Shown piece after piece: positions 9,340 to 63,953 of a stretch of DNA of 64,000 bases. The stretch's first letter is position 1. Each line of letters opens with the position of its first letter. The notes under the pieces were generated by a model. That model did not search any database and was not told where the DNA came from. It was given only the letters and a program-made list of their open reading frames with translations. This stretch comes from a virus. The stretch is from IMG/VR virus record IMGVR_UViG_3300045988_075126, positions 32,001-96,000 of that record, one strand, 5' to 3'. Position numbers and translations under genes: made by a program.

Positions 9340-9768
9340 ATGACAGCGGAAACTATTCAATTAATACAGACGGGAATTAATCTTCTTTGCGCATCGGGAG
9401 TTATCTCCACGTTGCTGTACTATAATAGTAGAAAACGAAAGGAGGCGGCACTCGCATCACAGGAAGAGAATAAGACTATTTCATCATATGCCGATGAGTG
9501 GAAGGCTCTCTATGAACGTTCCAACGAGTCGGTCGTTAATCTTAATAGTAAAGTAGATGAATTGTATGAGGAAATCAATCAGTATCGTATTACCATACGC
9601 AATCTTAGGGATGAGAAGAACGATTTGAAGCTTGCCTTGCATGAGGCACAATGGAACAGATGCATCAAGGATGGATGCCAACTTAGAACCCCACCAAGAA
9701 AACGAGATTCTTTAGAAGCATTTGTTGAAAAAGAAGAGAGTGCTATATATCGTGACAGGGAGGATTAA
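9340..9768 (+). CDS. membrane-anchored coiled-coil protein, first gene of lysis cassette
   Basis: 142 aa. N-terminal TM (INLLCASGVISTLLYY), then a coiled coil. Precedes the holin and endolysin. Confidence 0.55.
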   Translation: MTAETIQLIQTGINLLCASGVISTLLYYNSRKRKEAALASQEENKTISSYADEWKALYERSNESVVNLNSKVDELYEEINQYRITIRNLRDEKNDLKLALHEAQWNRCIKDGCQLRTPPRKRDSLEAFVEKEESAIYRDRED

Positions 9769-9771
9769 AAT

Positions 9772-10041
9772 ATGATTAAGTATCTGAAATTACTTATACA
9801 AGTTAATAGCGGACATTCAAGCAAGGCATTCTTCTTAGTGTCCGTGACCTTGATAGGTTTCTTGATGCTCTTAGTTGTATGCTTCATCTTAGTGTGGGAA
9901 GTGGTGACTTATGGGACGATCAAGACCGATTTGATGGGGTTAAGTGCATTTGTTGGTAGTGTGGCTAGTTTGTTCGTCACGGCTGGCATTACCAAGACTA
10001 TAGGGGAACGTGGCGAACATCAAAGCGAAAAAGATAAATAG
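9772..10041 (+). CDS. putative holin
   Basis: 89 aa with two TM segments and a charged C-terminus (ERGEHQSEKDK), directly upstream of the endolysin. Confidence 0.6.
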   Translation: MIKYLKLLIQVNSGHSSKAFFLVSVTLIGFLMLLVVCFILVWEVVTYGTIKTDLMGLSAFVGSVASLFVTAGITKTIGERGEHQSEKDK

Positions 10042-12760: not shown

Positions 12761-13528
12761 ATGGTTGCTTGTAGGGAAGAAAACAAACAAAAGAAAGAAG
12801 CTATGGGAGAAAGAAGACAAACAGAGGGCGATGAGCACAGAATCGTTGCAAAGCCAACTTATGAAGAGTTTGCAATGTATTGCTCGATGGCAGGTTTTAT
12901 GAAAGACAATCTAAAGTGGCTTTATGGTCGCTTCGATGATGTCGGATGGTTGCTACCAAGCGGTAAAGTCCCTAAGAAATGGGAGGATTTGGTCAAGAAA
13001 TGGAATTCCTTGAAGAACCCAAGCCAGACTTACCGCAAGCATGGTTTCAAGTTCAAGACCAAGGAAGAGAAGATGCACGACTGCTACGAAGTGTGGACAG
13101 ATGGTTCTGCGGTACTTAGGACTGATACCAAGCGAAGAAAGTATACTGGTGGTGCTGCCTATGTGATTTTACACGAAGGCAAGGTGTATAAGCAGGGAAA
13201 CTACGGAACTATAGACACGACAATTAGCCGTATGGAGCTTTTGGCAATCATTTGTGGTGTCGGTCATTGTCCACAGGGTGCGGCTGTGACGGTTCATAGT
13301 GATAGCCAATATGCACTTAAGACTTTGAGCGGTGTTTATTCTGCACACAAGAACTTAGACTTGATGGAGAAGTTTAGAAAGCATTCCGCTCATATAGCAC
13401 ACATCACTTGGCGCAAGGTGAAGAGTCACACAGGAGTTGAGTACAATGAGCTTTGCGACCGATTGGCGAACGAAGGTAGAATAGCTGCCGAGATAAAGGC
13501 AGGTTTAAGAGTAAATTCAAAAGCTTAG
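12761..13528 (+). CDS. rnhA: RNase HI fused to an N-terminal domain of unknown function
   Basis: C-terminal half has RNase H1 motifs: VWTDGSA, SRMELLAI, VHSDSQYA, KVKSHTG..NELCDRLA. True start uncertain. Confidence 0.75.
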   Translation: MVACREENKQKKEAMGERRQTEGDEHRIVAKPTYEEFAMYCSMAGFMKDNLKWLYGRFDDVGWLLPSGKVPKKWEDLVKKWNSLKNPSQTYRKHGFKFKTKEEKMHDCYEVWTDGSAVLRTDTKRRKYTGGAAYVILHEGKVYKQGNYGTIDTTISRMELLAIICGVGHCPQGAAVTVHSDSQYALKTLSGVYSAHKNLDLMEKFRKHSAHIAHITWRKVKSHTGVEYNELCDRLANEGRIAAEIKAGLRVNSKA

Positions 13529-15701: not shown

Positions 15702-15833
15702 AATTTGATTAATATGGTTACAAAAACTTTCAAGTGTTTGAACGCATAAAATGCAAAAATCTACTAAATGAATGGTTGTATTAATGCTTAAAGATTAAAA
15801 TACTTTAAACACGTATATAAATACATTAAATAA

Positions 15834-15915
15834 CTTGCATATTTCGAGATTTGTTTGTATCTTTGCAATGTAATTAAGAGACAAATTTAAATGGTGAGAC
15901 ACACCACAAAAACTG
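15834..15915 (+). promoter_or_regulatory. promoter-leader cassette (CTTG -33, TATCTTTG -7 at 15858-15865, hairpin motif 15893-15915)
   Basis: ACATTAAATAACTTGCA-20 nt-TATCTTTGCAATG...GGTGAGACACACCACAAAAACTG, 6 nt before ATG 15922. Confidence 0.65.
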
Positions 15916-15921
15916 GAGATA

Positions 15922-16233
15922 ATGACAAAGAAAGAAATTTTAAAACAATGGCTTGATGAACCGAAAGTGAAATATTGTGGCAAATCAAATTTCACGTTAG
16001 GTTATGGTGATGGCTGGGATTGGGTTAAAGATACCCTACGACCAGCTATCACGAAGAATGCGATGTTCCTTAGATTCTTGGAGCATGGTTTCCGTGAGAT
16101 AGAGGGATTTCTGAAATCGAAGACCGGAAAGCCAAGCGAAGAGGATTGCACCTTGTATTCTGTTGGTTACAAAGATGGGGTCAAGGATGCCATGATTGCA
16201 ATTAAGAATAGATTTGAAAAATTAAAATCCTAG
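15922..16233 (+). CDS. hypothetical protein
   Basis: ORF track, 103 aa. Stop TAG directly abuts the putative omega-RNA region. Confidence 0.6.
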   Translation: MTKKEILKQWLDEPKVKYCGKSNFTLGYGDGWDWVKDTLRPAITKNAMFLRFLEHGFREIEGFLKSKTGKPSEEDCTLYSVGYKDGVKDAMIAIKNRFEKLKS

Positions 16234-16500
16234 TTCCGGAAGCCTTTGATTAGGCTACAGCGGTTATCCATTCAATCGTCTGGAGCGGATTAGCCTCAGC
16301 CCCGAATGGAATTGGGAGCTACGTTAGGGATGAATACATAGGCACGTCAGGATGTCCGTCCAAGTTCTGACCTCTGCGGTCGATGATTAAAAGCGAGGAA
16401 ACTTGCGGTGTTGTCGGCAAGAAACCATCCTATAACATTGGCGATGGGCGCACAACCACCTTTCGAGGTGAGATTTATTTATTAATTTAAATTAATTTTT
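16234..16500 (+). ncRNA. putative IscB omega-RNA (HEARO-type) scaffold
   Basis: 267-nt ORF-free, GC-enriched segment immediately 5' of iscB. Helices AGGCTA(16252-57)/TAGCCT(16291-96), CCATTC(16268-73)/GAATGG(16304-09, pseudoknot-type crossing), GTCAGGA(16346-52)/TTCTGAC(16365-71), and CACCT-UUCG-AGGTG (16457-70). Exact 5'/3' ends unknown. Confidence 0.65.
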
Positions 16501-17748
16501 ATGATTTACGTAAGGAACAAGGAAGGTAAGGCATTGATGCCAAGCGAGCGTGGAGCGAGGATAGGTTATCTTCTTCGCCATGGTAAGGCTCATGTTGTCA
16601 GCCGTGTTCCGTTTATCGTTCAGTTGGATTATGAGAGCACCACCTATACGCAGGAAGTGAGCCTTGGCATTGATGCTGGCTCAAAGCACATAGGCGTTTC
16701 GGCTAGTTCCGAGAAGAAGGAGCTGCTTGCAGCGCAGGTTGAGTTAAGAAGTGATGTTGTGAACTTGCTTTCTGCTCGCAGGGAGTTGAGACGGACAAGG
16801 CGAAACCGCAAGACACGTTACCGCAAGGTTCGTTTTGATAACCGCAAGAAGAAAGATGGTTGGCTTGCACCCAGTATTGAGCAAAAGGTTGAGAGCCACT
16901 TGAAGGTTATCCGCTTGGTTCATAAGTTACTTCCAATTACGAAGACCACTATTGAGGTTGCTCAGTTCGATGCTCAGAAAATCAAGAATACCGACATCAA
17001 GGGTGAGGAGTATCAGCAGGGCGAACAGATGGGCTTTTGGAATGTTAGGGAGTACGTCTTGGCAAGGGATGGGCACAAGTGCATTCACTGCAAGGGTAAG
17101 AGCAAAGACCCTATCTTGAATGTTCACCATTTGGAGAGCCGCAAGACTGGTAGCAATTCCCCAAGCAATCTCGTAACGCTTTGCGAGACCTGCCACAAGG
17201 CTTACCATCGTGGAGAGTTCGACTTGAAAGTCAAGCGTGGCACTACTTTGCGTGATGCTGCGGTGATGAACATTATGCGTTGGGCGGTCTATGAGCGAGC
17301 GAAGGCAGAGTTTGGGAATGTTCACTTGACTTATGGTTACATAACTAAGCACACTCGCATAGAGAATGGTATTGCTAAGAGCCATGCAGCCGATGCTTTC
17401 TGTATTGCCAAGAACGTAAATGCAATGCGGTTGGAATTCTTCTTCATGTGCCGTTGTGTTCCCCGTCATACGAGAGCCTTGCATGTAGCGAATCCAAAGA
17501 AAGGTGGCATCCGCAGAAGCACGATAGCCTCTCATAAGATAGGTAAGTCTCGCTTCCAGCGTTTCGACATGGTGCGGTGGATGGGCGAGGAATGCTTTAT
17601 CTTTGGCAGCACGCATGGTAATGTTGTTTTGCGTAAAATTGATGGTGTAAAGGTGCATGAAACGCAAGCTGTGAACATCAAGACGATAAAGTTTTTGAGG
17701 AGATTGAGAAATAATATTTTAGTTAAAGAAATAGTTTTTATAAGTTGA
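16501..17748 (+). CDS. iscB: IscB RNA-guided nuclease (RuvC-HNH, OMEGA family)
   Basis: 415 aa. PLMP-like KALMPSERG; RuvC-I SLGIDAGSKHIGVS; Arg-rich bridge helix RRELRRTRRNRKTRYRKVRFDNRKKK; HNH CIHCKG..NVHHLESR..NLVTLCETCHKAYH; RuvC-III KSHAADAF. Confidence 0.85.
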   Translation: MIYVRNKEGKALMPSERGARIGYLLRHGKAHVVSRVPFIVQLDYESTTYTQEVSLGIDAGSKHIGVSASSEKKELLAAQVELRSDVVNLLSARRELRRTRRNRKTRYRKVRFDNRKKKDGWLAPSIEQKVESHLKVIRLVHKLLPITKTTIEVAQFDAQKIKNTDIKGEEYQQGEQMGFWNVREYVLARDGHKCIHCKGKSKDPILNVHHLESRKTGSNSPSNLVTLCETCHKAYHRGEFDLKVKRGTTLRDAAVMNIMRWAVYERAKAEFGNVHLTYGYITKHTRIENGIAKSHAADAFCIAKNVNAMRLEFFFMCRCVPRHTRALHVANPKKGGIRRSTIASHKIGKSRFQRFDMVRWMGEECFIFGSTHGNVVLRKIDGVKVHETQAVNIKTIKFLRRLRNNILVKEIVFIS

Positions 17749-17754
17749 ATTATT

Positions 17755-18045
17755 ATGGATTTAGGAAAGGCGATTAAGACAATGAGGGTAAGCAAGGGCT
17801 TGACCCAACGACAACTTGGTAAGGCTATCGGTTGTAGCGAGACAAATATGTTGTTTATGGAGACCGGAAGAACGTTTCCACGTAAGGGTAAGATTGATGC
17901 AATATGCAAGGTATTGGAGATTCCGATGTCATATTTGTTGATGTTCTCTATTACACCGGATGATATTCCGGAAGATAAGCAGAGTTTGTATACAAGCATC
18001 GTTGAGCCGATGCGTAACGAATTTATTAGGGAGTTGTTGCGATGA
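17755..18045 (+). CDS. XRE-family helix-turn-helix protein
   Basis: MDLGKAIKTMRVSKGLTQRQLGKAIGCSETNMLFMETG is a classic HTH_3 pattern. Confidence 0.75.
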   Translation: MDLGKAIKTMRVSKGLTQRQLGKAIGCSETNMLFMETGRTFPRKGKIDAICKVLEIPMSYLLMFSITPDDIPEDKQSLYTSIVEPMRNEFIRELLR

Positions 18046-26137: not shown

Positions 26138-26323
26138 ATGAAAGCAAGTGAGTTGATAGAGCATTTAAAATCTTACATTGATTTTACAGGTGGAGATTGT
26201 GAAATGCTTGTATTTGATAAAGCAGAAGGTGTTTCTTGTGGTATCGAGAATACTTCTACGGATGGTGATTATGTGTTTCTGCACATTTCATCCGATAAAT
26301 ACACAACAAAGATACCTGAGTAA
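26138..26323 (+). CDS. hypothetical protein
   Basis: ORF track, 61 aa. Confidence 0.5.
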   Translation: MKASELIEHLKSYIDFTGGDCEMLVFDKAEGVSCGIENTSTDGDYVFLHISSDKYTTKIPE

Positions 26324-26357
26324 TTACCATCCCTTATGGGATATAAATATAAGAAAT

Positions 26358-27140
26358 ATGAAGGAATTAAGAAAGAAAACATTTAAAAATGGTGTCGTGT
26401 ATTGTCTTCAGTTAGAAGATGGTTTTCTAGTTGAAACTACAGATACATTCTTGCCTTATTACACTAAAGATGCAATAGGCAGACATCAGAATAAGCTCGA
26501 CAACAATGAGCTTGGCGACCGCATGGAACGTTGGATGATAGGAGTATCTACAATGAGTGGATGTCCAGTAAGATGCAAGTTCTGTGCTACAGGCAACATG
26601 AAACGTTATCGCAATCTTACAGCAGAAGAAATCGTTGAACAGGTTGAATTTGCCATCAACAAGGCAGGTGCTGACCCAAGCAAAGCAAAAGAGTTTAAGA
26701 TAAACTATACTCGTATGGGCGAGCCATTCCTTAATATTGATGCAGTCAAAGAGGCTATTCGTGTTATTACTGAGAAATATCCTAATACCCATCATTACGT
26801 ATCAACGATTGGTATCAAGGGGAGTGATTTTTCTTTCATTAAGGGAAATATTACGTTACAGATTAGTTTGCATTCATTTGATGATAACAAGCGTAATTGG
26901 TTGATTCCTTACAAGAACAAAATGACTATTCAAGAGTTAGGTCAGATACGGACACAAAGCAATCTGAAAACAACAATCAACCTCACTCTTGTTGATACAT
27001 CTGATTTCGATGCGAAAAAGTTGGCTGAGTGGTTTGATAAGGAACATTTCTTTGTGAAGTTGTCTCCTATCAATGTGAATAACATATCAGAAAAGAATCA
27101 TCTTGGAACTGGTGTAGTAGAAGGAATTAATTTAGTATGA
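26358..27140 (+). CDS. RlmN/Cfr-family radical SAM methyltransferase core (lacks the C-terminal Cys motif)
   Basis: Internal ATG of ORF 26178-27140. GVSTMSGCPVRCKFCATG (CX3CX2C), EEIVEQV, RMGEPFLN, VSTIG, LQISLHS, LIPYKNK, VKLSPINV: same order as in RlmN. Ends before the AACGQL region. Confidence 0.75.
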   Translation: MKELRKKTFKNGVVYCLQLEDGFLVETTDTFLPYYTKDAIGRHQNKLDNNELGDRMERWMIGVSTMSGCPVRCKFCATGNMKRYRNLTAEEIVEQVEFAINKAGADPSKAKEFKINYTRMGEPFLNIDAVKEAIRVITEKYPNTHHYVSTIGIKGSDFSFIKGNITLQISLHSFDDNKRNWLIPYKNKMTIQELGQIRTQSNLKTTINLTLVDTSDFDAKKLAEWFDKEHFFVKLSPINVNNISEKNHLGTGVVEGINLV

Positions 27141-37458: not shown

Positions 37459-37607
37459 GTTAGAATAATCTAATCGTGAATGATAAGATTTCTATTTTCC
37501 AAATCTTCAATGAAACTTTGAGAACGTTCATAAGACTTTGGGATTTCATTTTACCTACTCTTTCAGGTTTTCGGCATCCCCTTTGTAATCTCTCTTTGAT
37601 TACACTG

Positions 37608-39700: not shown

Positions 39701-42700
39701 ATGGCAGAACTAGAATTTAACCTCCGAGCGAATTTCTCCCAAATCAAGGAAGCCAAGGAAGAGCTTGAAAGATTGCGTGGTGAATTGTTGAAGACTTCGA
39801 GAGCGACAGATAAATCTGTGGTTCAAGACCTCACGGATAAATATGCTGAACAAAAGCGTAAAGTAACCGAATTAAGCGAAGCAATGGGTCGTTATGCTAT
39901 GGTAACGAGCAGCGATTATGCAAAGAAAATGCAATCTTTGACACGGGAAGTATATGCTTTTGAATTGCAAGCCGACTCGTCCAGGCGAAAGATAGAGAAG
40001 CTTTCCAATGAGATAGCGAAGATGGAAAGCAAAATGCGCAGAGGTGGTCTTGATGTAGGAACAAGCGCAATTCTTTCTGATAACATATCATCCGGCTATG
40101 CCTCGTTGAAAGACGAAAAGGCTAGACTGGAGAATCTTACTGGATTAGGCAAGCAAGCGAGACAAGAGTTACAGAATATGCAAACGGAATATGCTAAGTA
40201 TTCGGGTTCTGTGTCTCCTGCTAAGGATATGACCAATCAAATGACAAATGCATTTGCCCAAATGATTGCTGAAATGAAGCAAGCTCCTACAGTCGGTGAA
40301 GGTATTTCCTCATTGTTTGGTCGTTTGAATGGTGACGCAAGACAACTAGCTATGAGTTTAGTTGGTGGTCTGGGCTTTGAACAATTGGCTGAGCACATCT
40401 TTAACGTTCGCTCTCAATTCCAACAATTGGAGATTTCTTTTACAACAATGTTGGGTAGTGAGCAAAAGGCTGGTGCGCTTATGGATGAACTTATCCAAAC
40501 TGCTGCTCGCACACCTTTCAACATGACAGACGTTACTGAAGGCGCAAAACAACTCTTAGCATATGGAATACAAGCCAATGAAGTAAATGACACCTTGGTA
40601 CATTTGGGTGATATAGCTTCTGGCCTTAATATTCCTTTGTCGCAGCTTGTTTATTTGTACGGCACGACCATTTCGCAAGGAAGAATGTTTACAATTGATT
40701 TGCGTCAATTCATGGGTCGAGGCATTCCGATGGCCGAGACCTTGGGGCAAATTATGGGTAAGACCGTATCCCAAGTGCAAGAGGCTGTAACGAAAGGTGA
40801 AGTCGGTGCAGATCTTGTGAAAGAAGCGATTGTGAAGATGTCAAGCGAGGGCAGCAAATTCGGAGGCTTGATGAACAAGCAAGCCGAAACCCTTCAAGGT
40901 CGTTGGTCGAACATAGAAGATACGATAGACCAAGCAATCAACTCTATAGGACAAAAGACACAAGGAATCTTTGGAACAGGTCTTGACTTAATATCTTCTC
41001 TGATAGAGAATTGGGAAACTTTGGTTAAAGTTATTGGTTCAGCGGCTGTTATGGTCGGAACTTACAAAGCTGGCTTGATGGCAGCGGCAAGCATTCAGAA
41101 GGTTCAGAATGCTATGACAATGGCATCAATCACAGAGGAACTTGATTCTAAGTTAGGAGAGGCAAGAGACCAAGAAAACAACTTCCGTTCCTTAAATGGT
41201 AAAGACACCAAGCAGTATCGGGCAAATAGATACAAGGCTTTAGGTGATGCTATTGCCGATACGTCAAACATTGGTGATGATAAGACAGAGGAAATCGTTT
41301 CAAAGCAAATTGAGATGGCGAGGAACGAGGGTCTTATCACCGAGCAGATGGCTCAACAACTCCAAACAAAGCGAGATTTATTGGTTGCCCAGCAAAAGGC
41401 TGCTGATAATGAGCGCATGGAGTATGAGAACGCAAAGCGGACAAAAGAAATAGAAGAGGAAGCCGCACGACAAAAGAGAGCCGATGCGGAAATGGCTGCT
41501 GAAATTAACGCAAAGGCTGCAAAGAAAGCCACTATAGACGAGGCTAATAATACTCCTTTGGGTAAGGCTATTCTTAACACAAATGCTATAGAGGAAAAGA
41601 AAAAACTGGCAGAAGCAAGCATCGAATTTGCCAAAGAAGAGGCAAGGGAACAACATGGAATTGTAGAGGAAATCGGTGCTCAAATCAAGAAGCAAGAAGA
41701 ACTTGTAGCCGCAAAAAAGGAGCAGGTAAAGTCTTCATACCAAGATGTGATTGATTTGGGCGGTTATGATGATGGCTTTGGTGATGATTTGAAATTACGA
41801 GACCAAGCAGTAAATCAATATGTGGCTGAGCAGCAAAAGTTGAACGACCTCAAACAGAAGAGTTACGAGGCTTCTCAAAAGGCATATCTCGCAGACCAAA
41901 AAGTATTGGGTATGCAAGAAGACCTTAAAGGTGTAACCCAAGAGCTTAATCAAGCTATAGAGGAGGAAAACCGAATCTATGGAGAAACTGGCTCTAATGC
42001 GGACGAGATAAACAAGCTGGTGAATGAGGGGGTTGCGGCAAAAGAGGGCGATACGGCTGCGGTTAATGCAAATACTACTGCCAAACAAGGGAATACGACA
42101 TCTGAGAATGCGAACTCTGCGGCACGAAACGCTAATGCCGGAGCTACTACAAGACAAACTGCATCAAATGCAGCAAACACAACCACAGAGAATGTTAATT
42201 CAGCGGCTACCGGAGCGAATACGACTTCTCAAAACGTGAATACAAGTGCGAAGCAACGCAATTCCTTTGTTACAAGCATGATGTCAGTTGGTACAAAGGC
42301 TGCGACCTTGGCTCAATCGGCTTTTTCGTGGGCAACCAATGCGTTGACAACGAGCTTGCGTAGTCTTTGGGCTACTATGGTTTCTAATCCATTGACTTCT
42401 GTCATTACTTTAGTGAGCACAGCTATTTCTGTATTCTCTTTGTTTGGTGACGAAACGGAAGATGTTGCGACCAAGACTGCAAACATGGGGAATAAAGCAT
42501 CTGAGGCAAGTGCTAAGGTTCGTTCCTTGTTTGCTATCTTGGGGGCCGGCAAGGATGCGGAAAACCACAAAGAGACAATAGATGCATTGAAAAGCGCATA
42601 CGAAGAGTATGGCGTAAAGCTCGATGAAACAATTATGAAGTCCGAAAACGAAGCTTCAAAGGTACAAGAGCTGATGAAGCATAAGGAAGATTTGATAGGC

Positions 42701-45700
42701 GTTATCGAAGAGCAAACTATTGCCATGGAACATCAAAATGCCGTACAGCAAGCGTATGACGATTATAATACCAGTAAGAATTCCGCAAAGATGGATTTTC
42801 AGGAGGCAACTAAAGGCGTGCTTACAAGTGATCAAGCTGCGTTTGCCACCATTGCGGTAAAGGATGAAGATTTAGATAAACTTATCGAATTAAGCAAGAA
42901 ATATAAGGAAGTTAGAGACAATTCGGAAGAAATGTACAAACTCAACCAGCAGTATGCTTCTGTCATGGATAAGGTTTCCGAAGGTGTAATGAGATATTAT
43001 AAAAACCTTCATCTTTCTGATGAACAAATAAGAAGTATAACGGGAGCAACAAATGAATACATTTCTACTATTACCCATTCAAAGGAAGCGTTAAATGAGA
43101 GGGTTAAATCTGAGAACAAAGCTAAAGTTGCAGCGGAGAATGCTAGTAAAGAGGTAAGAAAGCTTTCAGATAGTACAAAGGAGAATGCCGAACGTAACAG
43201 GTTGGCGAAAAAGTCATTTAAGGAAATGGCTGTTGAAATGGATGAAATCCGAAAGATTTGTGAAAGAACTTATCATATGAAAATCAAGGTGGACTATGAC
43301 GATAAGTCATTGCCCGCTTGGATTAAGAATATGTCTCAGAGCCAAAGGGCAGGAAGTGCAAGAGCAAGATTGGCATGGTTGAAAACCCATAAGCCGGGAG
43401 ATACAACAAAGAAGTTTGGTGGAACTAATAAGAATTATTGGACTATTTATAATGAAAGCCGAGGGCTTCAATACAAGGGGGAAAAGGTAGAGAGTACACC
43501 AACCGAGACTGAGGCTCAGAGAAAGAAACGTCTCGCTGCTGAAGCTAAGAAAAAACGTGAAGCGGAACGTGCGGCAACTAAGGCAGAGCGTGAAGCAAAT
43601 CAAAAGGAAACGATGGCTGGTAATAAGCGCAAGGCAGAGGAGGACTATGCTAAGTCTATTTCTTCCTATTCGGAGAAAGCCAGTGATGAGTTGTCAAAGC
43701 GAAGAACGGAATTGATTAAGAATGAGACCGAAAAGGAGATTGCTCAAATTAATATGTCTTCAGACAAGGAGAAAAAGGCTATAGAGGATTCGATTGACAA
43801 ACTCGTTGAGGCTAAGAAGAAGAAAGACCAGATTGTTTGGGTAAATTCGGGAAAAGGTCGTAAAGCCAGCATGTGGAAACAGGGTAAGTCCGATGCGGAA
43901 TACCGCAAAGAGGTATTGGGCACACAAATGGTTGACGACAAGGGTAATCATCTTGGGAAGACCATTGGACAGAACTCTGAAGACCAAATTGCCTTGATTG
44001 AGAAACAGAGGCAATTAAAGCTGAAGGAAATCCAGCAAGCGGAGATAAAGGACATGTTGGATTTCATGAAGCAATACGGCAGCTTAGAACAACAACGTTA
44101 TGCTATTGTAAAAGAATACACGGACAAGATAGACCTTGCAAGAGAAAAGGGAGATACTTTTGGTGCAGCGAACGCTGAAATGGAGATGAACGACCAGTTG
44201 AAGAAGTTGAATTTTTCGGATTTCAAGGATTCTATCAATTGGGATGTTGTCTTTCAGGATATGAACCGATTGAGTATTCCTTATCTTGAAGACCTTCGCA
44301 AGAAGATGAAGGAGTTGCTTGGTTCGGGTACGTTGGAAATTGATGACATGAAAACCGTATCTGACCAAATCTACAAGATTGATGATGCGATTTCCGAGCA
44401 GAAGGATAGATGGGGATTGGTTAATGATGCAGTCCGTGAACACCGTAGGCTTATTGATGAGGCGAAGGATGCGCAAGACCGATTGGCACAAGCTAGAAAG
44501 GTGGAGTTTGATGCCAAGGCTGACAACATGAGCCAAAGGAGAAAAATCCAAGGTGTGTTTGCGGAAAGTGGGATTAATATAGATACCAGTAATATTACTT
44601 CTGCCAATAAGGACAGACTAATGGGTTCTACCAAAAATCTCAGTGTAAGCCAAACGGAGAAGTTACGTAAGCTTTTTGATGATTTGGCGGTTTCAGAGGT
44701 TAAGGTTGGAAAGGCAACAAAGGAAGTCGGAAAGGCGCAGGAAGAAGCCAAGGTAAAGCAGGATGCCGCAAAGAAGAGCTTGCACGATACTATCGAGGAA
44801 TGGGCTGAGGGTTTGAGTAAAATCCAAGAGAAACTAAAAGACCTTCCTGGGTTAGTCGATGCTTTGGGTCTCGGAAACACAGGCTTTGGTAAAGCTGTGA
44901 ATAACGGAATGGATGCATTGAACAGTGGAACACAAGCCTTTTCTGATTTTGCAAGCGGAAACTACATAGGCGCAGCTATGAATGGAATAAAAACCATTGG
45001 TTCGTTGGGCAAGATGTTCGGTATTGGTGGAGGTAATGGTGCAGAAGTTGCGAAGAAAACTGAAGAGCTGACCGAGAGCAATGACAGATTGATGTATTCC
45101 ATTGATAAGTTAAAAGAGTCTATTGACAAATCTTCCGGTTATACAGCCGTCAGCAACTATAATGCTGCTTACGATGCTCAAAAGCAGGTTAACACCCAAA
45201 CGATGGATATTCTCAAAACACAAATGGGGTATCATGGTGCACACCATTCAAATGCTTATTATTGGAATCTTTCTGCACAAGATTATGCGGCAATCAATAA
45301 GACTTTGGCACAGCAATCGGCAGTCAGAGGCGGTTATACCAATTCTTCGATAAACAAGGTTAATTCCTTGGAGGATATATACAAGCTCACTCCAGAGCAG
45401 ATGGCTGACATTCGTACACATAATGCGGATGTATGGAAGAACATGACCGACCAAGGCAAGTATGATAAGACGGAATATTGGGAGCAATATACAGAACTGG
45501 CGGGAAAACTAGAGGAGTTGACGGAGCAAATCAATGAGAATTTGACTCAAACAACCTTTGATTCGATGAAGAGTGACTTCATAAACAATCTTATGGATAT
45601 GAGCAAGTCTGCAAAGGATTTTTCTAATGACTTCACTACAATGCTCAGCCAGTCGATGCTCAACTTCGCTTTGGGAGACCTTATGAATAAAAAGCTTAAG

Positions 45701-46234
45701 CCTCTTTATGAGAGCTGGGCAAACAAGATGAAGGAGAATGGAGGAAGGCAGCTCACGCCAACCGAATTGAATAATCTTAAAGAAGAGTATGATAAGATAG
45801 TTCAAGAGGGTTTGGCTATTCGTGATAATATTGCTGATATTACGGGTTACAAGCAATCTTACGAGCAGTCCGCTTCTTCCGGTTCTTTTGAATCAATGAG
45901 CCAAGATACAGGAGAAGAGTTGAATGGTCGTTTCACAGCGGTACAAATTGCTACAGAGGGAACGTATGAGGAAACAAAGCTCATAAATACCAAGTTGGAT
46001 GCTATTGCGGCTCGTGATGGTGGCACAGAGGGTAGCTTATTAACGGCTAGCGTGAATACCATTATGGGTAATGTAGGTAATATATGGGTTGCCGTTGATG
46101 AGGGAAGAACCATTCTTGCACAAAGCTTGATGTACTTGCAGTCGATAGATGAGCGACAAGAAAGCTGGAATAAGCATATTTTACTGATGAGCCGTAATCT
46201 TGACACTATCAAAAACAAGGTGGATAGGTTGTAA
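39701..46234 (+). CDS. tape-measure-like giant protein (2177 aa)
   Basis: Contains the TMP core pattern TTMLGSEQKAGALMDELIQTAARTPFNMTDVTEGAKQLLAYGI...LVHLGDIASGL...LVYLYGTTISQGRM. Long coiled coils. An N/T/A/S-rich repeat region (nt ~42058-42260) is followed by hydrophobic segments. Confidence 0.8.
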   Translation: MAELEFNLRANFSQIKEAKEELERLRGELLKTSRATDKSVVQDLTDKYAEQKRKVTELSEAMGRYAMVTSSDYAKKMQSLTREVYAFELQADSSRRKIEKLSNEIAKMESKMRRGGLDVGTSAILSDNISSGYASLKDEKARLENLTGLGKQARQELQNMQTEYAKYSGSVSPAKDMTNQMTNAFAQMIAEMKQAPTVGEGISSLFGRLNGDARQLAMSLVGGLGFEQLAEHIFNVRSQFQQLEISFTTMLGSEQKAGALMDELIQTAARTPFNMTDVTEGAKQLLAYGIQANEVNDTLVHLGDIASGLNIPLSQLVYLYGTTISQGRMFTIDLRQFMGRGIPMAETLGQIMGKTVSQVQEAVTKGEVGADLVKEAIVKMSSEGSKFGGLMNKQAETLQGRWSNIEDTIDQAINSIGQKTQGIFGTGLDLISSLIENWETLVKVIGSAAVMVGTYKAGLMAAASIQKVQNAMTMASITEELDSKLGEARDQENNFRSLNGKDTKQYRANRYKALGDAIADTSNIGDDKTEEIVSKQIEMARNEGLITEQMAQQLQTKRDLLVAQQKAADNERMEYENAKRTKEIEEEAARQKRADAEMAAEINAKAAKKATIDEANNTPLGKAILNTNAIEEKKKLAEASIEFAKEEAREQHGIVEEIGAQIKKQEELVAAKKEQVKSSYQDVIDLGGYDDGFGDDLKLRDQAVNQYVAEQQKLNDLKQKSYEASQKAYLADQKVLGMQEDLKGVTQELNQAIEEENRIYGETGSNADEINKLVNEGVAAKEGDTAAVNANTTAKQGNTTSENANSAARNANAGATTRQTASNAANTTTENVNSAATGANTTSQNVNTSAKQRNSFVTSMMSVGTKAATLAQSAFSWATNALTTSLRSLWATMVSNPLTSVITLVSTAISVFSLFGDETEDVATKTANMGNKASEASAKVRSLFAILGAGKDAENHKETIDALKSAYEEYGVKLDETIMKSENEASKVQELMKHKEDLIGVIEEQTIAMEHQNAVQQAYDDYNTSKNSAKMDFQEATKGVLTSDQAAFATIAVKDEDLDKLIELSKKYKEVRDNSEEMYKLNQQYASVMDKVSEGVMRYYKNLHLSDEQIRSITGATNEYISTITHSKEALNERVKSENKAKVAAENASKEVRKLSDSTKENAERNRLAKKSFKEMAVEMDEIRKICERTYHMKIKVDYDDKSLPAWIKNMSQSQRAGSARARLAWLKTHKPGDTTKKFGGTNKNYWTIYNESRGLQYKGEKVESTPTETEAQRKKRLAAEAKKKREAERAATKAEREANQKETMAGNKRKAEEDYAKSISSYSEKASDELSKRRTELIKNETEKEIAQINMSSDKEKKAIEDSIDKLVEAKKKKDQIVWVNSGKGRKASMWKQGKSDAEYRKEVLGTQMVDDKGNHLGKTIGQNSEDQIALIEKQRQLKLKEIQQAEIKDMLDFMKQYGSLEQQRYAIVKEYTDKIDLAREKGDTFGAANAEMEMNDQLKKLNFSDFKDSINWDVVFQDMNRLSIPYLEDLRKKMKELLGSGTLEIDDMKTVSDQIYKIDDAISEQKDRWGLVNDAVREHRRLIDEAKDAQDRLAQARKVEFDAKADNMSQRRKIQGVFAESGINIDTSNITSANKDRLMGSTKNLSVSQTEKLRKLFDDLAVSEVKVGKATKEVGKAQEEAKVKQDAAKKSLHDTIEEWAEGLSKIQEKLKDLPGLVDALGLGNTGFGKAVNNGMDALNSGTQAFSDFASGNYIGAAMNGIKTIGSLGKMFGIGGGNGAEVAKKTEELTESNDRLMYSIDKLKESIDKSSGYTAVSNYNAAYDAQKQVNTQTMDILKTQMGYHGAHHSNAYYWNLSAQDYAAINKTLAQQSAVRGGYTNSSINKVNSLEDIYKLTPEQMADIRTHNADVWKNMTDQGKYDKTEYWEQYTELAGKLEELTEQINENLTQTTFDSMKSDFINNLMDMSKSAKDFSNDFTTMLSQSMLNFALGDLMNKKLKPLYESWANKMKENGGRQLTPTELNNLKEEYDKIVQEGLAIRDNIADITGYKQSYEQSASSGSFESMSQDTGEELNGRFTAVQIATEGTYEETKLINTKLDAIAARDGGTEGSLLTASVNTIMGNVGNIWVAVDEGRTILAQSLMYLQSIDERQESWNKHILLMSRNLDTIKNKVDRL

Positions 46235-51339: not shown

Positions 51340-51371
51340 TTTGGTAGAGTGGAATATAATAGCTATCTTTG
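51340..51371 (+). promoter_or_regulatory. promoter (TTTG -33, TATCTTTG -7)
   Basis: TTTG(51340-43)-20 nt-TATCTTTG(51364-71), 27 nt before ATG 51399. Confidence 0.55.
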
Positions 51372-51398
51372 TGGTCGAATATTAAAACTTATAAGGAT

Positions 51399-52295
51399 AT
51401 GAAGATATTAGAACCGAAATACGAAATCCTATCCCAAGGTGAGGGTATGGATGGAGTTTACAAGCAGATAGAGCTATGTGGTCGCACTTGCTATGCGTCA
51501 ACTATGAAGATAGACAAAGACAGCGCAAAGCCTTTCGTTGAGCGTATGATGAACTCAACGCACTATGCTGTGTTGGAGCATGGAACAATCTATCTCCATG
51601 TTGCTTACGATAACGAGTTCTTTGTACCGGAGTCTTTATTGGTCAAGCACTATCGTGAGAACAAGTATTCCAAGGTGATGCAGATAGGTAACGATTACTA
51701 TATTACGACCAACTACAGAGTGATAGTAGAGAATGAATGGTTTGATGATTTGGACTATATCTGCGAGCCTACGGAATGGCATGAGAAGCGAATAACCGTC
51801 CGCTTTACTACTCAGATTGCGGTAAGTAGAGAGGCTAACAGACATCGTGTAGATTCCGTAGCGGAACAAAGCACCCGATATTGCAACTATAGTAAAGATA
51901 AGTTCGGAGGAGAGATTGCTATCAACAAGCCAAAGTGGGTTAGCGAAGATTATGCGGTTAATCCATCGTCTTTTGATGGTGGAACATTTGTTGACCTATC
52001 AAAGAACATCGGTAGTTATGAGCATTGGAGTCCGGTAGAAAAATGGTGGTTTGCCAATAGAGTATGTGAAATGATGTATTTGTCTTTGGTTAAGGATGAT
52101 GGTTTAAAGCCACAAGATGCGAGAACTATTCTTCCTCTTGATACCAACACGGAGTTGATTCATACCGCATTCGTGAGTGATTGGCTTCATTTCTTCGATT
52201 TGCGATCAAAAGGAACTACTGGAAAGCCTCATCCAGATATTGAGGTCTTGGCAACCCCATTGATGAATGAGTTCAAGGAACGAGGTTTGATTTAA
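51399..52295 (+). CDS. thyX: FAD-dependent thymidylate synthase ThyX
   Basis: ThyX signature SREANRHRVDSVAEQSTRY (RHR...S..QS.RY). Start moved to the ATG downstream of the promoter. Confidence 0.85.
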   Translation: MKILEPKYEILSQGEGMDGVYKQIELCGRTCYASTMKIDKDSAKPFVERMMNSTHYAVLEHGTIYLHVAYDNEFFVPESLLVKHYRENKYSKVMQIGNDYYITTNYRVIVENEWFDDLDYICEPTEWHEKRITVRFTTQIAVSREANRHRVDSVAEQSTRYCNYSKDKFGGEIAINKPKWVSEDYAVNPSSFDGGTFVDLSKNIGSYEHWSPVEKWWFANRVCEMMYLSLVKDDGLKPQDARTILPLDTNTELIHTAFVSDWLHFFDLRSKGTTGKPHPDIEVLATPLMNEFKERGLI

Positions 52296-58542: not shown

Positions 58543-58615
58543 GCTGCATTAGACAAGTGGTTAAGTCGCCAGCTTTTCACGCTGGTATTCAAAGGTTCGA
58601 ATCCTTTATGCAGTA
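58543..58615 (+). tRNA. tRNA-Glu: tRNA-Glu (anticodon TTC)
   Basis: Manual cloverleaf: acceptor GCTGCAT/ATGCAGT, D-loop with GG, anticodon stem CCAGC/GCTGG, loop TTTTCAC, T-arm AAAGG-TTCGAAT-CCTTT. 73 nt, no encoded CCA. Confidence 0.8.
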
Positions 58616-58621
58616 CTAAAT

Positions 58622-58692
58622 TGCCCTATGGTGTAATGGCAACACTACAGGTTTTGGTTCTGTCATTAGTGGTTCGAATCCACTTGGGGCAA
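58622..58692 (+). tRNA. tRNA-Gln: tRNA-Gln (anticodon TTG)
   Basis: Acceptor TGCCCTA/TGGGGCA (U1-A72), D-arm GTGT/ACAC, anticodon stem ACAGG/TCTGT, loop TTTTGGT, T-arm AGTGG-TTCGAAT-CCACT. 71 nt. Confidence 0.8.
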
Positions 58693-58722
58693 CGAGGAGG
58701 AATAGGAGTATGTTCCACAAAT

Positions 58723-58807
58723 GGTGCGATATTCAAGCGGTTAAAGAAGATTGACTGTAAATCAATTCCCATAGCGGGTTCGGTGAGTTCGAATCTCCCT
58801 TGCACCA
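58723..58807 (+). tRNA. tRNA-Tyr: tRNA-Tyr (anticodon GTA), long variable arm
   Basis: Acceptor GGTGCGA/TTGCACC, anticodon stem ATTGA/TCAAT, loop CTGTAAA, 16-nt variable region, T-arm GTGAG-TTCGAAT-CTCCC (one mismatch). 85 nt. Confidence 0.7.
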
Positions 58808-58829
58808 CAAGTACTTTTGTCATATTACA

Positions 58830-58902
58830 AGGAATGTAGCTCAGTAGTAGAGCACTTGGCTTGGTAACCAAGGGGGCGTTGGTGCAAATCCAACCATTCC
58901 TT
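58830..58902 (+). tRNA. tRNA with 8-nt anticodon loop CTTGGTAA (Thr-GGT-like with an extra U; identity uncertain)
   Basis: Acceptor AGGAATG/CATTCCT, D-arm GCTC-AGTAGTA-GAGC (no GG), anticodon stem CTTGG/CCAAG enclosing 8 nt, T-arm GTTGG-TGCAAAT-CCAAC (atypical T-loop). 73 nt. Confidence 0.55.
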
Positions 58903-58905
58903 TAC

Positions 58906-58977
58906 GCTTTCGTAGCTCAGTGGCAGAGCATAGGATTTTTAATCCTAGGGTCGAAGGTTCGAATCCTTCCGTTGGCA
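58906..58977 (+). tRNA. tRNA-Lys: tRNA-Lys (anticodon TTT), imperfect acceptor stem
   Basis: D-arm GCTC-AGTGGCA-GAGC, anticodon stem TAGGA/TCCTA, loop TTTTTAA, T-arm GAAGG-TTCGAAT-CCTTC. Acceptor GCTTTCG/CGTTGGC has two central U.U mismatches. Confidence 0.55.
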
Positions 58978-62864: not shown

Positions 62865-63953
62865 ATGGAAAAATCACTTTATTTTCAGTTGGTCAATAAA
62901 TACTTCCCACAACTTGTTGCAAGTGTAGTAGAGAAGTTGAACGGCAAGTATCAGACCACATTGACCTATATGTACCGAGACCACTTGACTAATACCTATA
63001 GTCAAGACGGACGATGGGCATCAATTACTGCGGAATACACACGAGTTGCTGCTGACGTTGTATCAATGGATGCGGAACTTCCATTGAAGAGCCGTGACAA
63101 GGTATCAACCGCTGAGGGTCAAATCCCAAAGGTTGGTATGAAACTCTACATGTCAGAGAAGCAGCTTAAGGATTTGGACAACATGATTGCGCAACGTTTG
63201 CCTCAGCCACAGATTTTGCGTAACTTGTTTGCAGACCTTCCTCGTTGTATTCAGGCGGTTTACGAGCGTATTGAAGATATGTTCCTCAGTGAGTTGTCAA
63301 CAGGTGTAGCTTTGGCTACCCGTTCAGGTGGTACTGGTGTTCGAGTTGATGTTGGCTTTGCCGAGAAGAACAAGTTCGGTCATGGCACTAAGGCTTGGGA
63401 CGCAGAGGATGCAACCCCACTTGACGACATCCAATTGGTTTACGACAAGGCGATGGAAGACCAAAATACCATCACTACTTGTTATCTTGACGATTACACA
63501 ATCAAGTTGCTTGGTAAGAACAAGCAGGTTCGTGCTCAGTTTGCCTTCAATCAAGGCATTGCGATTAATAGTGATAGCAATATTCCTATTTTGAGCTTAG
63601 AGCAAATTGCTTCTATCTTCAAGAACAAGTGGCAGACTAACTTGGTACGTGTAGCCCGTACGATCAAGACCGAGATTAACGGCAAGAAGGGAACACACAA
63701 CCCTTGGGCTAAGGGTCACATGACCTTTACTTGCTATGACAATCTTGGTGATTTGTTCTGGACTAACGTAGCCGAAGCTACAAGACCAGTTGCAGGTGTA
63801 ACTTATCAGTCAGCCGATGAGTATATCTTGGCTAGCCGTTATTCTACCAACGACCCACTCCGTGAGTTCACCAGCTCACAGGCAATGGTTGTTCCTATCT
63901 TGAATAACGTTGATGCCATTTACTCTTTGGACTCAACACAAGCAGTAGGTTAG
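62865..63953 (+). CDS. major capsid protein (HK97 fold, lambda gpE-like size class)
   Basis: 362 aa. Head-module position after the scaffold and decoration-like genes. No sequence motif verified. Confidence 0.6.
   Translation: MEKSLYFQLVNKYFPQLVASVVEKLNGKYQTTLTYMYRDHLTNTYSQDGRWASITAEYTRVAADVVSMDAELPLKSRDKVSTAEGQIPKVGMKLYMSEKQLKDLDNMIAQRLPQPQILRNLFADLPRCIQAVYERIEDMFLSELSTGVALATRSGGTGVRVDVGFAEKNKFGHGTKAWDAEDATPLDDIQLVYDKAMEDQNTITTCYLDDYTIKLLGKNKQVRAQFAFNQGIAINSDSNIPILSLEQIASIFKNKWQTNLVRVARTIKTEINGKKGTHNPWAKGHMTFTCYDNLGDLFWTNVAEATRPVAGVTYQSADEYILASRYSTNDPLREFTSSQAMVVPILNNVDAIYSLDSTQAVG

What the first reader, a model, noticed from the sequence alone, without database searches (positions are those of the whole stretch)
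16234..17748. Compact IscB nuclease with an upstream omega-RNA-like region, wedged into a phage operon with no transposase and no room for transposon ends
The 415-aa ORF carries the full IscB domain order. It has a PLMP-like N-terminus (KALMPSERG) and RuvC-I (SLGIDAGSKHIGVS). An Arg-rich bridge helix (RRELRRTRRNRKTRYRKVRFDNRKKK) follows. The HNH region reads CIHCKG..NVHHLESR..NLVTLCETCHKAYH, and RuvC-III is KSHAADAF. The 267 nt directly upstream have no ORF, are GC-enriched compared with other intergenic DNA here, and contain several helices. These include a crossing (pseudoknot-type) pair: 16252-57/16291-96 versus 16268-73/16304-09. A UUCG-capped hairpin (16457-70) sits 30 nt before the ATG. 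This is the layout known for IscB omega-RNAs (HEARO RNA). The unusual part is the context. The upstream ORF stops at 16233 and the next ORF starts 7 nt after the iscB stop. There is no TnpA and no obvious IS200/IS605 ends. The module therefore looks fixed in the phage rather than a recent IS insertion. A phage-borne RNA-guided nuclease could act in phage-phage competition, host-DNA targeting or homing.
Basis: partly seen in the sequence, partly recalled or inferred. Interest (0 to 1): 0.8.

Follow-up and report, generated by a model that had tools for sequence, protein, structure and literature searches.

The report
Mobile IscB guide-RNA element in phage
A 1.5-kb selfish DNA element that encodes an RNA-guided nuclease (IscB, the small ancestor of Cas9) and its guide RNA sits in a gut phage genome; it is real and looks functional, but it is a known kind of element in a known kind of place, and it comes and goes among close relatives of this phage.

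Summary
ORF 16501-17748 is a full IscB: NCBIfam guided_IscB scores 349 bits against a cutoff of 175, and the RuvC and HNH catalytic residues are present. The upstream 270 nt is its omega/HEARO RNA, with 16 base pairs showing compensatory changes across 35 copies.

The "unusual context" claim mostly fails. A phage about 90% identical lacks exactly 16229-17754. I found 123 copies, 80-92% identical, at 36 different guide-side junctions in human-gut phage contigs. The element ends are not missing. The left end is the 5' end of the omega RNA. The right end overlaps the last iscB codons, and the stop codon lies in the target-adjacent motif TTGAA. Lack of tnpA, co-orientation with the upstream gene, phage carriage and omega-RNA-only mini copies are all published features of IscB elements.

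This copy does have degenerate ends, yet iscB is under purifying selection (dN/dS about 0.1). The best reading is a non-autonomous ISC/IS605-type element now kept by RNA-guided homing between co-infecting phages.

One pattern is unexplained: the element always replaces 10-1200 bp of phage DNA, and one right junction pairs with several left junctions.

Verdict: new member of a known kind, moderate interest.

The parts
16213..16228 (+). Predicted guide segment of the omega RNA (TTTGAAAAATTAAAAT). It is flank-derived and is the 3' end of phage ORF 15922-16233.
   Evidence: Inference. Similarity between copies at different sites starts at 16229-16232. In IscB elements the guide lies 5'-adjacent, outside the transposon boundary (PMC10055086). 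Not shown experimentally.
16229..17754 (+). Stretch absent from element-free relatives (inserted element plus junction nucleotides).
   Evidence: L001 (MT835610.1) and at least 10 other related contigs join 16228 to 17755 through only AGGAGGTTAA.
16228..16233 (+). Degenerate left terminus: TCCTAG instead of the family consensus TTCAAG. The consensus is the reverse complement of the transposon-encoded cleavage motif TTGAA. The mutation creates the TAG stop of the upstream ORF.
   Evidence: Junction alignment of 30 copies and of 36 junctions.
16229..16480 (+). Omega RNA scaffold (HEARO-type).
   Evidence: Rfam HEARO hit 16278-16456 at 77.7 bits. Consensus structure on 35 distinct copies: 96% of cells paired against 34-45% when slid, 16 pairs with compensatory changes, 0 of 500 shuffles reach this.
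16233..16286 (+). First helix P1 (16233-16239 with 16280-16286). It encloses the local hairpin 16241-44/16253-56 and an invariant single-stranded stretch.
   Evidence: Ten sequences carry a both-sides change at one pair, and there are several wobble changes. It corresponds to GUCAAC/GUUGAC in Geobacillus copies.
16268..16309 (+). Pseudoknot pairing CCAUUC (16268-73) with the loop GAAUGG (16304-09).
   Evidence: Paired in 35 of 35 copies, with one compensatory C-G to U-A change in L025.
16457..16470 (+). Terminal UUCG-capped hairpin, 30 nt before the ATG.
   Evidence: Three pairs change on both sides in 13 copies.
16501..17748 (+). iscB (415 aa) with PLMP/RuvC-I, bridge helix, RuvC-II, HNH, RuvC-III and a C-terminal TAM-interaction region.
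   Evidence: dN/dS is 0.08-0.18 between copies.
17722..17744 (+). Degenerate right subterminal hairpin. The family consensus GTGGAAGAAAGGACTTCCGAAAG reads GTTAAAGAAATAGTTTTTATAAG here, so the 3' arm is lost.
   Evidence: The same lesion is shared with L026, L007 and L008, which sit at the same right junction.
17745..17749 (+). TTGAA: predicted target-adjacent motif on the IscB strand (reverse complement of TTCAA). It contains the iscB stop codon TGA (17746-17748).
   Evidence: It is the positional equivalent of ATGAA, the reverse complement of TAM TTCAT, at the end of Geobacillus ISGst5-like copies (PMC10055086). At the L069 site the element ends at ...CCGAAAG and is followed by the local sequence of the empty allele instead.

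Best explanation
Window 16229-17744 is a copy of a non-autonomous insertion sequence of the ISC / IS200-IS605 kind. It carries only iscB and its omega RNA.

Shown here: it is an insertion relative to close relatives; it belongs to a family found at many sites in human-gut phage genomes; the RNA structure and the protein are under selection; both of its ends have decayed.

Inferred mechanism:
1. Read-through transcription of the phage operon produces an RNA. Its first roughly 16 nt (16213-16228, the end of the upstream phage gene) act as guide, and 16229-16480 act as scaffold.
2. IscB binds this RNA and cuts DNA that carries the guide sequence next to a TTGAA/ATGR-like motif. Such DNA is the same locus in a co-infecting or sister phage genome that lacks the element.
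3. Recombinational repair from the element-bearing genome copies the element in. This is 'non-restorative homing'.
4. New sites in the family were most likely made by a Y1 TnpA supplied in trans. This copy can probably no longer use one.
For: Identity.

Insertion polymorphism: L001 and at least 10 other relatives have the empty site.

Mobility: 123 copies with 36 guide-side junctions, and up to two full copies per contig.

End architecture parallels the experimentally studied Geobacillus ISGst5 IscB elements, which share 52% protein identity. The scaffold starts at the boundary with the reverse complement of the transposon-encoded motif, and the far end abuts the reverse complement of the TAM (PMC10055086).

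Selection: dN/dS is about 0.1 even between copies that share the degenerate right end.

Targets: in element-free alleles the DNA just after the guide-matching flank begins A|TGR in 7 of 23 sites (P = 7e-5). This resembles the TAM, so such alleles would be cleavable.

The same site holds either the full element or the omega-RNA-only mini element in different phages. That fits exchange by recombination.
Against: No RNA, cleavage or homing data exist for this family, and its TAM is inferred, not measured.

At this copy's own site the known empty alleles have AGGAGG after the guide match, which is not TTGAA-like. Homing by this particular copy is therefore doubtful.

The guide is very AT-rich.

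No tnpA was found in the window, in any flank of about 150 loci, or attached to a matching end. The source of transposition is therefore unknown.

Insertions are never simple. The element replaces 10-1200 bp, which the standard peel-and-paste model does not predict.

The termini form an imperfect inverted repeat of about 18 nt, which is not typical of IS200/IS605.
Confidence: 0.75

Rival explanations
1. Domesticated phage gene. The element is immobilised, and the phage keeps IscB and its RNA for its own benefit, for example to cut competing phages or host DNA. It is not a selfish homing element.
For: Both ends of this copy are degenerate. iscB is still under purifying selection. No transposase is present.
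Against: At least 10 close relatives lack it at this site, and others carry it elsewhere. It is therefore not a conserved phage function. The guide is the adjacent phage sequence itself, not host or foreign DNA. Purifying selection is equally expected for a homing element.
Confidence: 0.12
2. This copy is still an active transposon that a host- or phage-encoded TnpA can excise and move.
For: The family has clearly moved many times. Some genomes hold two full copies.
Against: In this copy the terminal TTCAAG reads TCCTAG, and the 3' arm of the right hairpin is replaced. Both ends and the motif are needed for excision in ISGst elements (PMC10055086).
Confidence: 0.08
3. Fixed-guide reading. The invariant stretch AGCGATTATCCATTCAATC (16260-16277), which lies just 5' of the Rfam HEARO match, is the guide. 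On this reading every copy targets one constant sequence.
For: This stretch is identical in nearly all copies. The Rfam alignment starts right after it.
Against: The stretch lies inside helix P1 (16233-39/16280-86), which has compensatory support. Part of it pairs in the pseudoknot. In Geobacillus relatives P1 starts at the element boundary. The Rfam start is therefore an alignment artefact.
Confidence: 0.03
4. An ordinary protein-only HNH homing endonuclease of phages, with an unrelated structured leader.
For: PHROGs label the family 'HNH endonuclease'.
Against: The full IscB architecture has a split RuvC domain and passes the NCBIfam equivalog cutoff. It matches solved IscB structures. The leader matches HEARO and co-varies.
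Confidence: 0.02

Closest known systems
ISGst5-type IscB elements of Geobacillus stearothermophilus (Meers et al. 2023, PMC10055086)
   Same: Protein identity is 52% to Geobacillus, Anoxybacillus and Paenibacillus copies. Catalytic residue numbering is identical (D58, H209, H210). The omega RNA lies upstream with the scaffold starting at the element boundary. The far end has a hairpin followed by a 5-nt motif (ATGAA there, TTGAA here). The element is non-autonomous.
   Different: Here the iscB ORF runs through the end hairpin and stops inside the motif. The two termini form an imperfect inverted repeat of about 18 nt (TTCAAGTTCCGGAAGCC against TTCAACTTTCGGAAGTCC). The insertion inside P1 is 40 nt with a different hairpin. 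The carriers are phages, not a chromosome. Insertions are accompanied by loss of adjacent DNA.
ISC2 transposons (Kapitonov, Makarova and Koonin 2016, PMC4810608)
   Same: Size is 1.3-1.7 kb. They encode IscB only, have subterminal imperfect hairpins, make no target duplication, have the target motif on the 3' side of the sense strand (N|ATGA and similar), and show empty sites in related genomes.
   Different: No partner IS605/IS200 with the same ends and a transposase was found for this family.
OgeuIscB-omega RNA (PDB 7utn, 7xht)
   Same: Same domain order and catalytic residues, E about 1e-45. Same RNA family.
   Different: About 80 residues shorter. The TAM is unknown here (NWRRNA for OgeuIscB, PMC12660989).
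Standalone, mobilised omega RNAs acting in trans (summarised in Altae-Tran et al. 2023, PMC10691335) and PATE-like minimal elements (PMC10055086)
   Same: The roughly 330-nt mini elements found in related phages carry both ends and a complete omega RNA but no iscB. They often share a genome with a full copy.
   Different: The mini form has its own terminator-like hairpin (CATCCC-TTCG-GGGATG plus a T-run). It occupies the very same junctions as full copies in other phages.
Free-standing homing endonuclease genes of T-even phages (SegF, SegB, Mob; reviewed in PMC13565253)
   Same: A nuclease gene sits between conserved phage genes and is present or absent among relatives. Flanking markers appear co-converted, for example the first codons of the downstream gene at the L003 site.
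   Different: Target recognition is by RNA guide rather than protein. The element has sharp, transposon-like ends.

Membership tests
IscB (RNA-guided endonuclease, NCBIfam NF040563) | Scores above the curated equivalog cutoff | tested here: met
   348.7 bits against 175.
IscB | Split RuvC domain with inserted HNH, N-terminal PLMP region and Arg-rich bridge helix, with catalytic D/E/H/D and HNH residues present | tested here: met
   Pfam RRXRR 2-174 plus HNH 194-237. D58, E152, H209/H210, N223, H295 and D298 align to solved IscB.
IscB | RNA-guided, TAM-dependent cleavage of double-stranded DNA | not testable with these tools
   Needs biochemistry.
HEARO / omega RNA (Rfam RF02033) | Reaches the Rfam gathering score | tested here: not met
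   77.7 bits against 83, E 1.9e-15. The first stem was mis-aligned. The rest of the model (1-211) is matched.
HEARO / omega RNA | Conserved multi-helix structure, supported by covariation, directly upstream of iscB on the same strand | tested here: met
   65 pairs are 96% paired, 16 pairs have compensatory changes, and slid controls give 34-45%.
ISC / IS200-IS605 transposon | Discrete ends shared by copies in different contexts, with empty sites in related genomes | tested here: met
ISC / IS200-IS605 transposon | Subterminal imperfect hairpins at both ends | tested here: inconclusive
   The family consensus has them: left 16241-44/16253-56 with compensatory changes, right GGAAG...CTTCC. In the window copy the right one is destroyed.
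ISC / IS200-IS605 transposon | Insertion next to a short specific motif, without target duplication and without loss of target DNA | tested here: inconclusive
   The motif TTGAA (variants TCGAA, TTGGA, TTAAA) follows most copies, and there is no duplication. In all but one of the sites that have an empty allele, 10-1200 bp of target is missing. The exception is the L014 site, where no DNA is lost but about 5 extra nt are present.
ISC / IS200-IS605 transposon | Mobilised by a Y1 (HUH) TnpA in cis or trans | tested here: inconclusive
   None in cis: the window and about 150 loci are negative with tblastn and a local HMM that does detect TnpA beside distant IscBs. Supply in trans is not testable.
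Type II CRISPR-Cas9 | CRISPR array, tracrRNA and a REC lobe | tested here: not met
   Cas9 models score far below cutoff. The protein is 415 aa. A dedicated repeat-array search was not run.

The most novel reading that the evidence does not exclude
This lineage has become a largely transposase-independent, RNA-guided 'gene-overwriting' drive of gut phages.
- The guide-side junction is repeatedly re-set to a new upstream position that lies just 5' of an ATGR/TTGAA-like motif, often the start codon of a phage gene.
- The re-setting would arise from adjacent deletion or from recombination between nearby copies.
- Each new allele carries a new guide whose target exists only in element-free competitors.
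- Cutting and repair then replace the intervening phage gene (10 bp to 1.2 kb) with the element.
- Omega-RNA-only mini elements ride on the same nuclease, so one phage genome can hold one nuclease and several guides.
Probability: 0.3. Interest if true: 0.65.

Novelty: new member of a known kind. Interest (0 to 1): 0.4.

Why it matters
By itself the locus adds one more IscB to a large known family, so it is not a discovery.

Its value lies in the population around it. Dozens of near-identical gut phage genomes carry the element, or its RNA-only miniature, at the same or different sites, alongside matching empty alleles. A 2026 review of OMEGA systems (PMC13565253) still treats homing of such elements between co-infecting phages as theoretical. 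This family offers a natural data set, and candidate phage pairs, to test it.

The compact 415-aa nuclease with a defined RNA of about 250 nt is also a candidate genome-editing scaffold. Many such scaffolds already exist.

Tried and rejected
(1) Rfam at gathering threshold found no HEARO. The E-value run did. The shortfall comes from the first stem.

(2) I read the invariant 16260-16277 as a possible fixed guide. I rejected this because it lies inside the covarying helix P1 and takes part in the pseudoknot.

(3) I looked for a transposase three ways. tblastn used IS608 and IS200 TnpA sequences recalled from memory, which makes it a lead only. A local HMM was built from TnpAs found beside distant IscBs. 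Neither found anything in the window or in close-family loci. A scan for the right-end sequence to find an autonomous partner returned only more copies, minis, one end remnant (L157) and chance hits.

(4) I tried several models for the junctions. These were a TA-duplicating (Tc1/IS630-like) insertion, pairing of the two termini (co-variation of the outermost dinucleotides), and taking the IscB strand as the TnpA 'top' strand. None fitted all sites.

(5) Treating TTGAA as part of the element was rejected by the L069 site. There the element ends at CCGAAAG and the empty-allele sequence follows directly.

(6) Host assignment failed. The capsid protein's nearest annotated relatives (25-31%) infect Bacteroidota. 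The only close copy in a genome bin is labelled Lachnospiraceae. The empty site carries a strong AGGAGG ribosome-binding site.

(7) The Altae-Tran 2021 paper could not be read. Statements about it rest on later papers that cite it.

Full report
**What is at the coordinates.** ORF 16501-17748 (+) encodes 415 aa. The upstream ORF ends at 16233 and the next starts at 17755. The protein passes the NCBIfam equivalog model for IscB (348.7 bits, cutoff 175). It has Pfam RRXRR plus HNH. It aligns to solved IscB structures (7utn, 7xht, 11hr; E about 1e-45) with D58, E152, H209/H210, N223, H295 and D298 opposite the catalytic residues. D58/H209/H210 are the same positions mutated to inactivate Geobacillus IscB (PMC10055086). 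PHROG 119, labelled 'HNH endonuclease', matches residues 1-312 at 2e-58. On my understanding that PHROGs are numbered by size, this is a large family, so proteins of this type would be common in phages.

**The RNA.** Rfam finds nothing at gathering threshold. With an E-value threshold, HEARO matches 16278-16456 at 77.7 bits (gathering score 83, E 1.9e-15).

I aligned 35 distinct copies of the region from related loci. The consensus fold has 65 pairs:
- 96% of cells are paired, against 34-45% when partners are slid.
- 16 pairs carry both-sides changes.
- No shuffle out of 500 reaches this.

The first helix is 16233-16239 with 16280-16286. It has a C-G to U-A swap in ten copies. It encloses a small hairpin (16241-44/16253-56, three compensating pairs) and an invariant stretch. 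This corresponds to the GUCAAC/GUUGAC helix with a 46-nt insert in Geobacillus copies. It explains why the Rfam alignment started too late and scored just under threshold.

- 16268-73/16304-09 is supported (35 of 35 paired, one compensatory change).
- The UUCG hairpin 16457-70 is supported.
- 16252-57/16291-96 is not supported.

**It is an insertion, and the family is mobile.** MT835610.1 (L001), about 90% identical over the neighbourhood, joins window 16228 to 17755 through only AGGAGGTTAA. At least ten further related contigs have the same empty site.

A protein-guided scan of viral contigs gave 29 loci with 82-92% identical IscB. DNA scans with a conserved 19-mer gave 44 stretches in viral contigs and 45 in metagenome contigs. 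Together these hold 123 copies with 36 different guide-side junctions.

The window itself carries empty versions of four other occupied sites: 13805/14579, 18284/18436, about 30450/30472 and 57052/57099. Some contigs carry two full copies or one full copy plus one mini copy.

Among one genome per species (185,579 species), only one close copy turned up, on a 15.6-kb contig. The next relatives are 59% identical or less. The family therefore looks phage-borne.

**Where the ends are.** Similarity between copies in unrelated contexts begins at TTCAAG (window 16228-16233, here mutated to TCCTAG). It ends at ...GGAAGAAAGGACTTCCGAAAG (window 17722-17744, here GTTAAAGAAATAGTTTTTATAAG). TTGAA follows in most copies.

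Geobacillus ISGst5-like copies have the same plan: guide | GTCAAC... iscB ... hairpin ... | ATGAA. ATGAA is the reverse complement of the experimentally defined TAM TTCAT (PMC10055086). By analogy:
- TTGAA (17745-17749) is the target-adjacent motif.
- TTCAA at the left terminus is the reverse complement of the transposon-encoded motif.
- The guide is the 16 nt before the boundary (16213-16228).

At the L069 site the element ends at CCGAAAG and continues straight into the sequence of the empty allele. This shows that TTGAA belongs to the target. The iscB stop codon TGA therefore lies in the target motif. So there is 'room' for the ends: they overlap the RNA and the ORF.

**State of this copy.** Both ends are degenerate. 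The left motif has two substitutions, which create the TAG stop of the upstream ORF. The right hairpin has lost its 3' arm, a lesion shared with L026, L007 and L008 at the same right junction.

Even so, dN/dS for iscB is 0.08-0.18 in all comparisons. This includes copies that share the lesion: window versus L026 gives 0.11, and L026 versus L007 gives 0.09. The RNA helices are also intact. The nuclease and RNA are therefore still under selection although transposase-mediated movement of this copy is unlikely.

**No transposase.** tblastn with recalled TnpA sequences and a local HMM both detect TnpA beside distant IscBs (L033-L040, L056). Neither finds anything in the 64-kb window or in any close-family locus. 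A scan for the right-end sequence found no autonomous partner. This is the normal situation for iscB: about 1.5% have tnpA nearby (PMC10055086).

**Mechanism.** Steps shown here: insertion polymorphism, multiple sites, conserved RNA structure, an intact catalytic set and purifying selection. Steps inferred are set out under the best explanation: read-through transcription makes a guide-plus-scaffold RNA, IscB cuts element-free alleles that carry the guide match next to the motif, and recombination copies the element in.

Three observations support feasibility:
- In element-free alleles the DNA immediately after the guide-matching flank begins A|TGR in 7 of 23 sites. The background rate is 0.048, giving P = 7e-5. 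This resembles both TTGAA and the N|ATGA target of known ISC elements (PMC4810608).
- Full and mini forms occupy identical junctions in different phages.
- The first codons of the downstream gene differ between filled and empty alleles at the L003 site, as expected from co-conversion.

One observation counts against homing by this particular copy: its empty allele has AGGAGG after the guide match.

**Unexplained pattern.** At eight sites with an empty allele the element replaces target DNA rather than simply inserting. The lost segments are 10, 11-12, 14-18, 42, 85-186, about 146 and about 770 bp (the 3' part of the C5 methyltransferase gene), plus a whole 1.15-kb gene. Only the L014 site shows no loss; there about 5 extra nt are present instead.

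One right junction is combined with several left junctions: five for this site, three each for two others, and two each for three more. The reverse is never seen. The last base of the left flank is A in 34 of 36 junctions (P about 7e-15).

Candidate causes:
- A transposase-mediated joining of the guide-side end to an upstream motif.
- Recombination between two nearby copies after a local hop. Two-copy genomes exist.
- Selection for keeping the downstream gene translated.

I could not decide between them. The termini also form an imperfect inverted repeat of about 18 nt, unlike ISGst5.

**Comparison with the literature.** The following are all published:
- Virus-associated HEARO/IscB: over 16% of contigs (PMC9755519).
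- Standalone mobilised omega RNAs that work in trans (PMC10691335).
- PATE-like minimal elements and flexible end choice (PMC10055086).
- ISC structure and targets (PMC4810608).

Homing into co-infecting phages is so far described as theoretical (PMC13565253).

**Verdict.** The object is a new member of a known kind.

Noticed in passing
related loci L059, L064, L068, L078, L085, L086, L090, L094, L101, L148, L151, L156: Omega-RNA-only mini elements of about 330 nt. Each holds the first roughly 249 nt of the element, a terminator-like hairpin (CATCCC-TTCG-GGGATG plus a T-run) and the last roughly 45 nt with the right hairpin. They sit at the same junctions as full copies in other phages. Four contigs hold one full copy and one mini copy.
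   Followed up: partly
window 13805/14579, 18284/18436, ~30450/30472, 57052/57099: The window carries the unoccupied versions of four other insertion sites of the same element family. In other phages the element replaces the 3' 770 nt of the methyltransferase gene, most of a 62-aa ORF, or 42 nt of spacer at these places.
   Followed up: yes
window 17755-18045: The gene directly downstream of the element is an HTH transcriptional regulator (phrog_8, 1e-13). In element-free relatives it has an AGGAGG ribosome-binding site, which the element has removed. Its start now lies 6 nt after the iscB stop.
   Followed up: partly
window 37552-37584 (-): Rfam DUF805b RNA motif above its gathering score (42.7 bits against 35.6).
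   Followed up: no
window 58543-58977 (+): Cluster of five tRNA genes within 435 nt.
   Followed up: no
window 15819-15915; L001:5165-5271; L002:1491-1596 and 9717-9792; several other loci: An AT-rich intergenic stretch of about 100 nt recurs at 77-84% identity at several places in these phage genomes. It may be a repeated promoter or terminator region.
   Followed up: no
L157:1053-1070 region; L084:367-540; L074: Decay products of the element. L157 keeps only about 35 nt of the right end. L084 is a 171-nt internal-deletion derivative that joins the first roughly 95 nt to the last roughly 90 nt. L074 is a copy truncated after the first helix.
   Followed up: partly
L033, L038, L056 (and weaker L034-L040), about 300 nt downstream of distant iscB genes: Distant IscB relatives (42-50% identity; Clostridioides difficile and phage-like contigs) are followed on the same strand by a Y1 TnpA gene. 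These are autonomous ISC2Y-type elements.
   Followed up: no
window 39701-46234, 62865-63953, 51369-52295, 26178-27140, 12761-13528: Phage context: a 2177-aa tape measure protein, major capsid protein E, ThyX, a radical SAM protein and RNase H. The nearest annotated capsid relatives are only 25-31% identical (Cellulophaga, Riemerella and Porphyromonas phages). The host is unresolved.
   Followed up: partly
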